64,000 bases of DNA, taken from Escherichia coli. Lineage in GTDB: Bacteria; Pseudomonadota; Gammaproteobacteria; Enterobacterales; Enterobacteriaceae. The stretch lies in NCBI RefSeq assembly GCF_003991155.1, contig NZ_CP031293.1; one strand, written 5' to 3'. The stretch's first letter is position 1; every line of letters begins with the position of its first letter. This document shows positions 60,001-64,000 of this stretch, piece by piece. Made by a program: the position numbers.

Positions 60001-63000
60001 GAAAGGGCCGACCGCCGCCGGGTTTAAACCGCTGGTGATGTCGCCGAAAACGTCACAGCCGTTAAAGGCAAAAATGGACAGCGCCCCGGTGCTGACCTAC
60101 ATCAACGACTACGGCGCGCGCCTGCCGCTGATCTTCCGCTGTGAAGGGGACACCTGCAAGGTGGATGAAGATCAAAGCAGCAAAGGCTGATAACGGGAGA
60201 AGCAACATGAAAGCGTTCTTTCTGGCCGGGTCTGCCGCGCTACTGCTGGCCTGTGGCGCGACCGTTTCCCCGGCAATGGCGGGCGGCAAAATCGTCAACC
60301 TGACGCTGCGCGTACTGGTGGATGGGCCACCGCCCTGCTCGATACAGGGAAGCGCGGTGGAGTTCGGCAGTGTGGTCATTAAAGGCATTGATGGCGTCAA
60401 CTACCGTCAGCCGGTGGGCTACACCATGAACTGCTCAAACAGCGTCAGCGACGACCTGCGAATGCAGCTTCAGTCCACCACCACCACAATTAATGGTGAA
60501 ACGGTACTGAGTACCGGGATCGATGGCTTCGGCATTCGCATTCAGAATGCCGCCGACCATTCGCTGGTGGCCGTGGGCAACGCTAGCTGGCTGCCGTTCA
60601 ACATCAACACCCGGCCAGAATTCGAAGCCGTCCCGGTGAAGCAGAGCGGGGTGGAACTGATGGCATCGGAGTTTAACGCGACCATGACCATGGTGGTGGA
60701 CTACCAATGAAACGACTCGCGTGGTGCTTACTTTACGGTTTTGCTGGCCTGTCGCAGGCCGCGGTTAACGACGTTACTTTTCACGGCACGCTGGTCTCGC
60801 CACCCGCCTGTACCATCAGCGACGGTAAGAGCATTGAAGTGGCGTTCAGCAATGTGATCATCGACAACATCAACGGCGACAACTTTCGTCAGGACGTGCC
60901 TTACACCATCAGTTGCGATCCTGATGTGCGCGACGACGCCTGGGAGATGAGCCTGACCTGGACGGGCCACCAGACCAGCTACGATGACGCCGCCATTGAA
61001 ACCGACGTCGCTGGCCTGGGGATTGAGCTTCAGCAAAACGGCCAGCCGTTTAAAGTGGGCGAACAGTTGAAAATAGACCCGGCGAGCCCGCCGACGCTGA
61101 CCGCGGTGCCGGTAAAAGCCAGCGACGCGGCGCTCAGTGAAGGGAACTTCTCTGCCTGGGCAACCTTAACGGTGGATTACCAATGAATCTGACTCGCACA
61201 CATTACCGCTACGCGGCGCTGGCGGCGCTGCTGGCGTACGGCGGCATGGCGCAGGCGGCTGACAACCTGCATTTCTACGGCAATTTACTCAGTAAATCCT
61301 GCACGCTGGTGATTCAGGGCGAGTCGCTGGCGGAGGTGCATTTTCCCACCATCAGCCGTAAAGACCTGATGGCGACCGGGCAGTCGGCGCGGGTGCCGGT
61401 GGTGTTTCAACTGAAAGATTGCAAAGGGCCAGCCGAGTATCAAGTCCGGGTGACGCTGACCGGTACGGAAGACAGCGAGCAGCCCGGTTTTCTGGCGCTG
61501 GATGCCTCCTCCGGGGCGCAGGGCGTGGGGATTGGGATGGAAAAAACCGACGGAACGGCGGTGCCGATCAACAACACCAGCGGCGCGACCTTTGTGCTGA
61601 GCACCGGTGATAACAATCTGAATTTTAATGCCTGGCTCCAGGCGAAAAGCGGCCGGGAAGTGACGATGGGTGAATTTACCGCTTCTTTAACCGCAACGTT
61701 TGAGTACCTTTGATATGAAAATATTCCGTTTGATAACCTGTTTGTTACTACTGATGTTTGCGGGGACGGGCGCGCAGGCAGCGAAAAAGATTGCCACGTT
61801 GCATACGTTTTCGGGCTTTTCCACTTACAGTACGCATGTCATGTACTACCTTGATATTCTTACCCCCGAAGGCGTTAAGCATGGTGTGTATAAGAACTCC
61901 ACTACTCTGTTGAAAGTGGGTTATCTGGAAAATGTTAGCTGGACAGGGAGTGATACCCCGCCCGATTTATATTTGAATGCTTTTAGTTCAGCACCGAAGT
62001 CAAGCTGTCCAGGACTTGACGAATACGATGCCCGGTCTAAGACCGACTGGGTCTGCTACGAGATGCCTATCGATGTTTATTATGATGCCGACGTGCATGG
62101 CTGCCCATGGCTAGTCACAACGCGTAATGAGAGTTCTGTGCCGTCAGACACGGTTGGCCCCTATATTGGCCCGCAGGCGCGTAACTCGACCTGTCCGGTC
62201 TCAGTGGCCACCTATGATATTTCGTGGAGTGAAGACTACATCTTGTATACGAAGGTGCTGTCGTTGCAGTCGACGGGCGGCATGATTGAAAAAACGCTCC
62301 CGACCTTCCTGATGGAAAACGGCAGGCTTTGCGACGGCAGCCAGATGGATGACCGCGGTGCGTACTGCCGCTTTGTAGCTGAGATGATCACGTTCTCCAC
62401 CTCCGGCTGCGACAATTCAAGCGTTACGGTTACGCCCAACCGACACCCCATTACGGACAAACAACTGCACGACATGGTGGTGCAGGTGGATACCAGCAGC
62501 AGGCAGCCGATTGATTCCACCTGCCGCTTCCAGTACACGCTCAACGAACTGTAGCGCATACACCACACGACGCGGGGCCATCTGGCCCCGTTGTCCGTTA
62601 TGTCATGCGGTCATCCAGTTTTTTAGAATATTCGCCACCACGGGAGCGAAAGGTGCCAGATAACCGTCGACGGGGGTGAGTAATTCGTCGATAACCGCTT
62701 GCAGCAGGTCGTCATCTTCAAGCCCCTCTGAAGGGTCAATGCCATTAGCCCACAGAAGGCTGTCGGAAAGCTGCTTACGTTTTTCAATCAATGCCCGATT
62801 ATTACGTTCACTATCGCCAAGGTTGAGTACCTTAATCGCATCGATAGCTCTCGGCGTCGTCCCTTCAATTCGACCACTGATCTTGAAGATAAACTCGGTT
62901 TCACATTCCGGCATAAGCGGCGTTAACAGCAATGGCTGGTTCTTATGCGAGTCGTCACACTGGCCTTTTGTTTTGCAGCTTGCAACGATATTCGTGAATT

Positions 63001-64000
63001 CCAGACTGCGAGCAGGAGCTAAATCCCTGGCTTCGACATGTTCATTAACGGTATCGCGGTTTGTACCTGTCACGCGATCGCAGCAATAAGCACAGAGATA
63101 AAATTGCTCCTGAGCGCACTGCTGGCTGAGATCGCCAACGATATCCCATTTTTTTTGCGCATAAAGTTCCTGAAACCACTGATTGGCATTTTTATCCCGT
63201 GGTTTTGCTCTCACCCACTGTTGCATTGCGAATATCCGTATCCATCACATTCAAAAGCACAGTATTCGCATCTTGCCCATACAGAGACGGGAGCTGCGTT
63301 AATTCGCCATCATCCAGAGAATAAACCAGCACATCTTTGCAATCACTGATCACTAAAGGAGAGTGGGTTGTTAAGACAAACTGGCAATGTGGGAATGTTG
63401 TCGTCAGACGCTGGATGATTGTACGCTGCCATGTTGGATGCAGGTGCATGTCCACTTCATCAATTAATACAATTCCCTCGCCGTTTAGCGGGTTTTCTAA
63501 CATCGGGTTCATCATTGCCAGGCGGCGAGCAATATCGCCGACTAACGCCATCAGTGATTTTTCACCCTGCGATAATTGCAGCACATTCAGTGTCTGGCCA
63601 TTTTTATCTATCGACATATGCAGGCGAGGTTTACGCCTGACGCGTAAGTTGCTGAACCCTGGCATAAAGCGACTAATGGCCGTTCTGACGGCGGTCAACT
63701 GGCGATCCCGGGACGAGGCCATGATTGCCGTTAATGCATTTAAGACGGCGTTATCGAGATCTATCCTGGTACTGAGCTTATCCAGAACGTCTTGCGGTAA
63801 GCCCGATTCATTTTCTGCATCTTCGCGATTGCGAAACCACTCAAAGAAACGGCGGAAATCAATACCCTGATTCAGGGCGTTATCGTAGCCATCCAGTTGC
63901 AAAAAATTATGACGTTCTTTTATTTTCAACGGCACATCCAGCACGACACGTTCTACGGGATAGAAGGCGATAAGCGGGAAGGATGCCCCGCTATTCTGGG

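What the first reader, a model, noticed from the sequence alone, without database searches (positions are those of the whole stretch)
62603..64000. ATPase plus HNH two-gene module at the window edge, resembling a Septu (PtuA/PtuB) or retron-associated defence system
Downstream of yfcO, where K-12 continues with smrB (memory), there are two overlapping minus-strand genes: an ABC/SMC-like ATPase (signature-like LSQGEKS, Walker B, TTHSP loop; N-terminus outside the window) and a 207-aa protein with a Cys/His pattern typical of HNH nucleases. An ATPase without a Toprim domain followed by a small HNH protein is the Septu architecture, which also occurs fused to retrons. The system type cannot be confirmed because the upstream part is cut off.
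Basis: partly seen in the sequence, partly recalled or inferred. Interest (0 to 1): 0.7.

Follow-up and report, generated by a model that had tools for sequence, protein, structure and literature searches.

The report
Deletion-damaged Septu (PtuA/PtuB) phage-defence cassette
The two genes are a known E. coli anti-phage system, Septu (an ATPase, PtuA, plus an HNH nuclease, PtuB), but this copy has a 198-base deletion across the junction of the two genes that removes the part of PtuA that holds PtuB, so it is most likely a dead remnant.

Summary
Two minus-strand ORFs lie between yfcO and smrB, where K-12 has only a 70-bp spacer. They match PtuA (PADLOC E=2.8e-154) and PtuB (E=2.1e-89). No reverse transcriptase, retron RNA or Toprim domain is present, and smrB lies 85 bp upstream. 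It is therefore a stand-alone Septu, not a retron.

The intact form of this cassette is already published as "Septu EcB88" (Nat Commun 2026;17:3468). It blocks T5-like phages, T4 and T6, and cleaves host tRNA-Tyr on infection.

The window carries a derived allele with a 198-bp deletion between 11-bp imperfect repeats (junction 63215-63225). The deletion removes:
- PtuA residues 398-452, the conserved three-helix C-terminal domain that binds PtuB in solved homologues and is needed for defence there;
- the ptuA stop codon;
- the ptuB ribosome-binding site;
- PtuB's conserved first 13 residues.

Among 5,426 complete E. coli genomes:
- 137 have an intact ptuA-ptuB junction;
- 46 have this deletion;
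- 475 keep only a 233-bp ptuB relic.

Verdict: a known system in a probably inactivated copy. Interest is low.

The parts
62603..63226 (-). ptuB, N-terminally truncated allele (207 codons plus stop). It equals residues 14-219 of Septu EcB88 PtuB, with a new Met in place of L13 and one substitution (I198V).
   Evidence: ORF. PADLOC PtuB PDLC00344 gives E=2.1e-89 over profile positions 13-212 of 213, so the first 12 positions are missing. NCBIfam PtuB and TIGR02646 match below their cut-offs.
62945..63094 (-). HNH core of PtuB. Zinc-finger cysteines are C45, C48, C84, C90. The catalytic triad is H63, N79, H94. These are C57, C60, C96, C102 and H75, N91, H106 in full-length numbering.
   Evidence: All these columns are invariant in 31 homologues. 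H75A and N91A abolish defence in EcB88. The equivalent Cys4 zinc finger and catalytic His are described for Eco7 PtuB.
63192..64000 (-). ptuA, 3' part of the C-terminally truncated allele (codons 136-404 plus stop). The gene continues 406 nt past the window end; the full gene is L001 12793-14007 (404 aa).
   Evidence: PADLOC PtuA PDLC00271 gives E=2.8e-154 over profile positions 1-368 of 421, so the C-terminal ~53 positions are missing. Pfam finds AAA_21, AAA_23, SMC_N and AAA_15.
63555..63575 (-). ABC signature motif LSQGEKS (PtuA residues 278-284).
   Evidence: Direct reading. These columns are invariant in 63 homologues.
63456..63473 (-). Walker B motif IVLIDE (PtuA residues 312-317, including D316).
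   Evidence: D316A abolishes defence in EcB88.
63357..63371 (-). H-loop TTHSP (PtuA residues 346-350).
   Evidence: Direct reading. H348, S349 and P350 are invariant.
63215..63225 (.). Junction of the 198-bp deletion. One 11-bp copy (TGCAACAGTGG on the coding strand) remains of the imperfect direct repeat TGCGACAGTGG...TGCAACAGTGG, which is spaced 198 bp apart in the intact allele. The new ptuB ATG (63224-63226) is created at this junction.
   Evidence: Pairwise alignment with intact strain 806883-9-2019 (L004). The two BLAST pieces overlap at 63215-63225. Repeat copies lie at L004 2613-2623 and 2415-2425.
63192..63215 (-). Novel out-of-frame tail of truncated PtuA (GESKTTG plus stop), read from what was ptuB coding sequence. 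It replaces the 55 C-terminal residues (398-452).
62574..62589 (.). GC-rich hairpin GGGGCC-ATCT-GGCCCC between the convergent yfcO (stop at 62554) and ptuB (stop at 62603). It is a possible bidirectional terminator.
   Evidence: Direct reading. The terminator scan did not call it because no T-run follows, so its function is only inferred.

Best explanation
This is a chromosomal stand-alone Septu cassette (ptuA-ptuB) of the "Septu EcB88" type. It sits between smrB and the convergent fimbrial gene yfcO, in an allele that has lost 198 bp by deletion between 11-bp imperfect direct repeats.

How the intact system works (published work):
- PtuA is an ABC/SMC-like ATPase that oligomerises.
- A pair of PtuA three-helix C-terminal domains clamps the helical C-terminal domain of the HNH nuclease PtuB.
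- On infection by T5-like or T-even phages the complex is unleashed.
- Host tRNA-Tyr is then cut in its variable loop, giving an abortive-infection-like block.
- The Walker A and B residues of PtuA and H75/N91 of PtuB are all required.

What the window's allele has lost (shown here):
- PtuA ends at residue 397 plus 7 unrelated residues, so the whole C-terminal domain is gone.
- PtuB has lost its conserved first 13 residues.
- PtuB has lost its AGGA ribosome-binding site.
- The native 17-nt translational overlap with ptuA is gone.

Inference: PtuA can no longer recruit PtuB, and PtuB is probably poorly translated. The cassette is therefore most likely inactive, an early stage of gene decay fixed in one widespread lineage that includes ST93 strain LWY24. 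The catalytic motifs are still intact only because the lesion is recent.
For: Identity of the system:
- PADLOC gives PtuA E=2.8e-154 and PtuB E=2.1e-89.
- Pfam finds ABC/SMC-type domains and no Toprim.
- The closest solved chains to the ATPase are all PtuAs: Ec83 at 2e-62, Eco7 at about 1e-46, Septu 8EE4 at 9e-31.
- A profile of the PtuB family hits Ec83 PtuB, TIGR02646 and Septu 8EE7 PtuB.
- An AlphaFold model of the intact PtuA (pLDDT 78) has PtuA chains as its top 50 PDB matches, TM about 0.7.

Stand-alone status:
- Only two genes lie between yfcO and smrB.
- Rfam gives no hit.

Same locus and near-identical proteins as Septu EcB88:
- The cloned EcB88 fragment starts inside smrB.
- PtuA differs at 3 of 397 residues and PtuB at 1 of 206.
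- EcB88 function and mutants are reported.

The deletion:
- The alignment with an intact allele shows it directly.
- The repeat copies are located.
- 137 genomes have the intact junction against 46 with the deletion.

The intact form is ancestral:
- All non-E. coli homologues at 65-75% identity are 442-465 aa (PtuA) or 209-223 aa (PtuB). They cover 96-100% of the intact proteins.
- The deleted parts are conserved. PtuA D406, I408, A416, L423 and E433 are invariant.
- PtuB I4, K6 and P10 are at least 90% conserved.
- The PtuB N-terminus aligns even with Ec83 PtuB.

Functional importance of the lost domain:
- Residues 395-451 are modelled as three confident helices.
- They align with Eco7 PtuA residues about 482-540.
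- That region is the domain that binds PtuB. Deleting it (residues 484-550 or 524-550) lowers or abolishes defence and toxicity.
- PtuA or PtuB alone is neither toxic nor active on tRNA-Tyr.

Ribosome-binding site: AGGAAATTAAACATG in the intact allele against GGATATTCGCAATG here.
Against: - No experiment has tested this allele.
- Both ORFs remain open and all catalytic residues are intact.
- The allele persists in 46 complete genomes from many hosts and countries. A retained or altered function cannot be excluded, although recent clonal spread explains the same facts.
- Evidence that the C-terminal domain is essential comes from retron-type PtuAs at about 29% identity, not from EcB88 itself.
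- Those papers describe the domain deletions as 'reduced' defence, which is not always complete loss.
- A new in-frame ATG does exist for ptuB.
Confidence: 0.75

Rival explanations
1. It is a functional stand-alone Septu system. Despite the deletion, the shortened PtuA and PtuB still cooperate, or PtuB acts alone, to defend against phages.
For: - Both ORFs are open.
- Walker A and B, the signature motif, the H-loop, the HNH triad and the Cys4 zinc finger are all intact.
- The allele is present in 46 complete genomes.
- The PtuB C-terminal domain is retained.
Against: - The entire PtuA domain that binds PtuB is missing.
- Equivalent truncations in Eco7/Ec78 impair defence and toxicity.
- PtuB alone is inactive and non-toxic in Ec78.
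- The conserved PtuB N-terminus and its ribosome-binding site are lost.
- No natural homologue outside E. coli has this short architecture.
Confidence: 0.15
2. It is the effector module of a type I-A retron (Eco7/Ec83-like) whose reverse transcriptase and ncRNA lie beyond the window edge.
For: - The closest solved homologues of the ATPase are retron PtuAs (Ec83 at E=2e-62), ahead of Septu 8EE4 at 9e-31.
- PADLOC also matches the retron I-A ATPase and HNH models.
Against: - The full locus in identical genomes shows smrB ending 85 bp upstream of ptuA, with prmB and aroC beyond. No reverse transcriptase is there.
- Rfam finds no RNA family over 4 kb.
- PtuA lacks the N-terminal extension that contacts the reverse transcriptase.
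- NCBIfam retron Ec78 PtuA and PtuB scores are below the curated cut-offs: 333 against 500, and 80.5 against 150.
- EcB88 works as a two-gene clone.
Confidence: 0.02
3. It belongs to another ATPase-plus-nuclease defence family (PARIS AriAB, Gabija, OLD, AbiL) or to a housekeeping ABC/SMC protein pair.
For: Weak similarity of the ATPase head to AriA (E about 1e-6), OLD (7e-5), Rad50 and RecF. This is expected for any ABC-type ATPase.
Against: - PtuA and PtuB models score 100 or more orders of magnitude better.
- There is no Toprim domain.
- The partner protein is an HNH/TIGR02646 protein.
- The pair is accessory, present in 3.4% of genomes.
Confidence: 0.01

Closest known systems
Septu EcB88 (E. 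coli JBBDAGI-19-0041; PtuA WP_000981116.1, PtuB WP_016243072.1; Nat Commun 2026;17:3468, PMC13096335)
   Same: - It occupies the same chromosomal locus; the cloned fragment begins in the 3' end of smrB.
- PtuA is identical at 394 of the first 397 residues.
- PtuB is identical at 205 of 206 shared residues.
- The catalytic residues are the same: K43, D316, H75, N91.
   Different: - The window allele lacks 198 bp.
- PtuA is 404 aa rather than 452 aa and has no C-terminal domain.
- PtuB is 207 aa rather than 219 aa, with no native start codon or ribosome-binding site.
Retron-Eco7/Ec78 and Retron-Eco4/Ec83 PtuA-PtuB effectors (PDB 9KJX, 9NNB, 9E8Z)
   Same: - They are the closest solved structures in both sequence and fold.
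- The intact allele has the same ATPase head and three-helix C-terminal domain.
- PtuB has the same HNH core and Cys4 zinc finger.
- EcB88 and Eco7 share tRNA-Tyr as target.
   Different: - There is no reverse transcriptase, ncRNA or msDNA.
- PtuA has no N-terminal extension and a shorter coiled-coil insert.
- Identity is only about 29%.
Septu of E. coli ATCC 25922 (PDB 8EE4, 8EE7, 8EEA)
   Same: - It has the same stand-alone two-gene PtuA-PtuB architecture.
- A PtuA dimer binds PtuB through their C-terminal domains.
   Different: - It is more distant: E=9e-31 and about 24% identity.
- It is reported to degrade DNA under ATP control rather than to cleave tRNA-Tyr.
- It lies at a different locus. 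ATCC 25922 carries only the 233-bp ptuB relic at yfcO-smrB.
PARIS AriA-AriB
   Same: It is an ABC-type ATPase paired with a nuclease and causes tRNA-directed abortive infection.
   Different: The nuclease is a Toprim protein, not an HNH protein. AriA similarity is marginal (E about 1e-6).

Membership tests
Septu (PtuA/PtuB) | PtuA is an ABC/SMC-like ATPase (AAA_15/AAA_21 type) matching PtuA profiles. | tested here: met
   PADLOC PDLC00271 gives E=2.8e-154. Pfam finds AAA_21, AAA_23, SMC_N and AAA_15. All top PDB sequence and fold matches are PtuA.
Septu (PtuA/PtuB) | PtuB is a small HNH (TIGR02646-like) nuclease encoded immediately downstream on the same strand. | tested here: met
   PADLOC PDLC00344 gives E=2.1e-89. 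NCBIfam PtuB gives 1.6e-22 and TIGR02646 gives 6e-11, both below their curated cut-offs. The family profile hits Ec83 and Septu PtuB chains. The H-N-H triad and Cys4 are invariant. Pfam itself gives no hit.
Septu (PtuA/PtuB) | Stand-alone: no Toprim domain, no reverse transcriptase, no retron RNA. | tested here: met
Septu (PtuA/PtuB) | PtuA carries the helical C-terminal domain that clamps the PtuB C-terminal domain (the PtuA2:PtuB1 unit). | tested here: not met
   The window allele ends at ancestral residue 397. Helices 395-409, 413-426 and 432-451 of the intact protein are deleted. PADLOC profile positions 369-421 are unmatched.
Septu (PtuA/PtuB) | Full-length PtuB with its conserved N-terminus (MRKI.KG..P.SL) and its own ribosome-binding site. 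| tested here: not met
   The first 13 codons and the AGGA site are deleted.
Septu (PtuA/PtuB) | Confers anti-phage defence. | not testable with these tools
   Defence is shown for the intact EcB88 allele only. The deletion allele has not been tested.
Type I-A retron (Eco7/Ec78, Eco4/Ec83) | Reverse transcriptase gene and msr-msd ncRNA upstream of ptuA. | tested here: not met
   smrB ends 85 bp upstream, with no reverse transcriptase ORF. No Rfam hit was found at E up to 1.
Type I-A retron (Eco7/Ec78, Eco4/Ec83) | PtuA N-terminal extension (about 63 aa) that contacts the reverse transcriptase and ncRNA. | tested here: not met
   PtuA residue 4-11 aligns with residue 67-73 of retron PtuAs. The role of the extension is described.
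PARIS / Gabija / OLD (ATPase plus Toprim) | Toprim nuclease domain, either fused or as a partner protein. | tested here: not met
   Neither protein has a Toprim hit. The partner is an HNH protein.

The most novel reading that the evidence does not exclude
The 198-bp deletion allele is not dead. Two versions of this reading remain open.
- The truncated PtuA and N-terminally shortened PtuB still give infection-triggered tRNA-Tyr cleavage without the canonical C-terminal clamp.
- The 'disarmed' allele was positively selected in the ST93-like lineage, for example to remove autoimmunity or growth cost, or to tolerate a resident prophage. It would then be a natural separation-of-function mutant of Septu.
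Probability: 0.1. Interest if true: 0.4.

Novelty: already known. Interest (0 to 1): 0.18.

Why it matters
The practical lesson concerns annotation. Defence-system finders such as PADLOC-style HMMs would call this locus a complete Septu with very strong E-values. Yet this allele lacks the domain that joins the two subunits, so defence-repertoire censuses will over-count functional systems.

The locus also shows in-situ decay of a defence system in one species:
- an intact junction in 137 genomes;
- a junction deletion in 46 genomes;
- a 233-bp relic in 475 genomes;
- no trace at megablast sensitivity in the other 4,768 of 5,426 genomes, with K-12 and its 70-bp spacer as the example examined.

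For phage-therapy or host-range predictions in ST93-like E. coli, this Septu should not be assumed active. None of this changes what is known about how Septu works.

Tried and rejected
- **Pfam on the 207-aa protein:** no hit even at E up to 10. phmmer against PDB also gave no hit. The HNH assignment therefore rests on PADLOC and NCBIfam profiles, a family profile against PDB, invariant residues and published mutants.
- **AlphaFold model of intact PtuB from a 31-sequence alignment:** too poor to use (mean pLDDT 59.8, HNH core below 50). I did not run a fold search on it.
- **Rfam scan for retron msr or other RNAs around the cassette:** nothing found.
- **Search for mobile-element boundaries:** only short repeats consistent with chance. 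There is no integrase or transposase nearby, and GC content is only slightly below the flanks. No mobile carrier was identified.
- **The Li et al. 2024 Septu structure paper (PMC12318543):** not held. Its findings are cited only second-hand through later papers.
- **The E. coli defence-island survey (PMC10121019):** does not mention smrB or yfcO.
- **Retron, PARIS, Gabija, OLD and housekeeping ABC readings:** considered and rejected (see the rival explanations).
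Full report
**1. Observation**

The window holds a 207-codon ORF at 62603-63226 on the minus strand. Upstream on the same strand is an ORF that stops at 63192 and remains open to the window end. The ATPase fragment shows the ABC signature LSQGEKS, the Walker B motif IVLIDEVD and the H-loop TTHSP. The small protein has a CxxC...H...N...C...C...H pattern.

**2. Recovering the missing part**

Window 62400-64000 is 100% identical to many complete E. coli chromosomes. In strain LWY24, identical to window 50400-64000, the ATPase gene is 1,215 nt (404 aa). 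It starts 85 bp downstream of the smrB stop codon. The two genes are the only ones between smrB and the convergent fimbrial adhesin gene yfcO. prmB, aroC and mepA follow beyond smrB.

No reverse transcriptase is present, and an Rfam scan of 4 kb at E up to 1 found nothing. A K-12-type genome has a 70-bp yfcO-smrB spacer. Only 183 of 5,426 complete E. coli genomes hold the cassette.

**3. Family assignment**

- PADLOC models give PtuA E=2.8e-154 and PtuB E=2.1e-89.
- Pfam finds AAA_21, AAA_23, SMC_N and AAA_15 in the ATPase, with no Toprim. It finds nothing in the small protein.
- NCBIfam's retron-Ec78 PtuA and PtuB equivalogs match, but below their curated cut-offs.
- Against PDB sequences, the ATPase's best relatives are all PtuAs: retron Ec83 at 2e-62, Eco7/Ec78 at about 1e-46, and stand-alone Septu 8EE4 at 9e-31. 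AriA and OLD are marginal.
- A profile of 31 PtuB homologues hits Ec83 PtuB, a TIGR02646 chain and Septu PtuB 8EE7.
- In that alignment the zinc-finger cysteines (C57, C60, C96, C102) and the triad H75-N91-H106 are invariant.
- An AlphaFold model of the intact PtuA (pLDDT 78.4) has PtuA chains as all of its top 50 PDB matches, TM about 0.7.

The ATPase lacks the N-terminal extension of about 63 residues that retron PtuAs use to contact the reverse transcriptase. The pair is a stand-alone Septu, not a retron effector.

**4. The key finding: this copy carries a junction deletion**

The PADLOC alignments left the last ~53 positions of the PtuA profile and the first 12 of the PtuB profile unmatched. 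Another carrier, strain 806883-9-2019, annotates a 452-aa ATPase and a 219-aa HNH protein that overlap by 17 nt.

A nucleotide alignment shows the two loci are about 99.5% identical (10 mismatches in about 1,880 aligned bases) except for one gap. The window allele lacks 198 bp spanning the 3' end of ptuA and the 5' end of ptuB. The gap is bounded by an imperfect 11-bp direct repeat, TGCGACAGTGG / TGCAACAGTGG. One copy remains at window 63215-63225. This is the signature of a slippage or microhomology deletion.

Consequences:
- PtuA keeps residues 1-397 and then reads 7 unrelated codons (GESKTTG) to a stop. It loses residues 398-452.
- The ptuA stop codon, the AGGA ribosome-binding site of ptuB, the ptuB start codon and its first 13 codons are gone.
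- An ATG formed at the junction opens a 207-codon ORF preceded by no good Shine-Dalgarno sequence.

**5. Direction of change and conservation**

Homologues from other genera include Sodalis, Klebsiella, Salmonella, Dickeya, Pectobacterium, Aeromonas and Chrysiogenes, at 55-75% identity. They are 442-465 aa (PtuA) and 209-223 aa (PtuB), and they cover 96-100% of the intact proteins. Shorter forms occur only in E. coli. The long form is therefore ancestral.

The deleted parts are conserved:
- In PtuA, D406, I408, A416, L423 and E433 are invariant. L427, P428, K436, L441, R442 and K443 are at least 90% conserved.
- In PtuB, I4, K6 and P10 are at least 90% conserved.
- The PtuB N-terminus aligns even with Ec83 PtuB residues 3-15.

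**6. What the lost PtuA segment does**

The model of the intact protein places three confident helices at 395-409, 413-426 and 432-451. phmmer aligns residues about 394-449 with Eco7 PtuA residues about 482-540.

In Eco7 the C-terminal domain (484-550) is three helices that bind the PtuB C-terminal domain. Deleting it reduces defence (PMC12673091). In Ec78 a pair of PtuA C-terminal extensions sandwiches PtuB in a nine-helix bundle. Deletion of residues 524-550 reduces immunity and leaves little or no growth toxicity. The authors conclude that the C-terminus is required for both, and they state that the element is conserved in Septu (PMC12819146).

PtuA or PtuB alone is non-toxic and inactive on tRNA-Tyr, whereas the complex is active (PMC13376987). 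The window allele lacks more than those experimental truncations removed.

**7. The intact allele is already characterised**

Supplementary Data 8 of Nat Commun 2026;17:3468 (PMC13096335) gives the clone "Septu EcB88" from E. coli JBBDAGI-19-0041. Its insert starts in the 3' end of smrB and has the same smrB-ptuA spacer. PtuA (WP_000981116.1, 452 aa) differs from the window protein at 3 of the first 397 residues. PtuB (WP_016243072.1, 219 aa) differs at 1 of 206 shared residues.

That paper reports the following:
- The system is expressed from its native promoter.
- It defends against Demerecviridae, T4 and T6, but not T2.
- The phenotype is abortive-infection-like.
- It cleaves host tRNA-Tyr at C48/A49 of the variable loop, and only on infection.
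- K43A and D316A in PtuA, and H75A and N91A in PtuB, each abolish defence.
- The trigger was not identified.

A promoter-like site (CTGACA-18-TAAGAT) lies in the 85-bp spacer, outside the window.

**8. Population picture**

Among 5,426 complete genomes:
- 137 have the intact ptuA-ptuB junction and 46 have this deletion.
- A further 475, including ATCC 25922, retain only an unannotated relic of about 233 bp from the ptuB 3' end between yfcO and smrB.
- K-12-type genomes have no trace.

At least 25 carriers of the deletion allele are 100% identical over 1.6 kb. They come from humans, cattle, poultry, pets and wastewater. One of them, LWY24, is ST93 (PMC8025056). This pattern fits a recent lesion spread clonally. 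It also explains why the ORFs and catalytic motifs are still intact.

**9. Conclusion and scores**

Identity as a Septu EcB88-type cassette carrying a 198-bp junction deletion is essentially certain. That the deletion inactivates the system is an inference from homologues and conservation, at about 0.75 confidence. The main rival is a still-functional Septu (about 0.15). Retron and other families are excluded.

The system is already known. The only new element is that this copy is decayed. That matters mostly as a caution for automated defence-system censuses. Interest is 0.18.

Noticed in passing
between yfcO and smrB in other genomes (e.g. L002 1914-2147; equivalent to window 62595-62827): 475 of 5,426 complete E. 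coli genomes, including ATCC 25922 and the CSF isolate N50, keep only an unannotated relic of about 233 bp from the ptuB 3' end at this site. The relic is 94-97% identical to the window. This is a second, older decay state of the same Septu cassette.
   Followed up: partly
window ~11176: The five best-matching genomes (2016C-3878, CREC-544, MRY15-131, LWY24, AR Bank #0349) all hold exactly 1,200 bp that the window lacks (LWY24 L006 11177-12376). The missing stretch is the 5' 1.1 kb of the sensor-kinase gene ypdA plus its upstream region. ypdA is therefore truncated in the window.
   Followed up: partly
window 45305-45326 (tRNA-Arg / torI junction): Relative to LWY24 the window lacks a prophage of about 43 kb (P22/lambda-like, intS side) integrated at tRNA-Arg. 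A 22-bp overlap between the two alignment pieces looks like the attachment core. torI remains next to the tRNA.
   Followed up: partly
L001 14039-14068 (outside the window, about 440-470 nt beyond its end): A sigma-70-like site, CTGACA-18-TAAGAT, lies on the minus strand in the 85-bp smrB-ptuA spacer. It is a candidate native promoter of the cassette. The whole region yields no more such sites than shuffled sequence does.
   Followed up: no
ptuA (window 63192-64000 and beyond): This stand-alone PtuA is closer in sequence and predicted fold to retron-associated PtuAs (Ec83 at E=2e-62) than to the structurally solved stand-alone Septu of ATCC 25922 (9e-31). That matches the published finding that EcB88, like retron-Eco7, targets tRNA-Tyr rather than DNA.
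   Followed up: partly
window 60700-62554 (yfc fimbrial operon 3' end): The yfcO allele next to the cassette is highly diverged from K-12 yfcO (about 75% identity at its 3' end). All 658 genomes that match the last ~155 bp of this yfcO allele also carry ptuB sequence, either complete or as a relic. The Septu cassette therefore appears to be linked to one fimbrial-operon haplotype rather than to a recognisable mobile element.
   Followed up: partly
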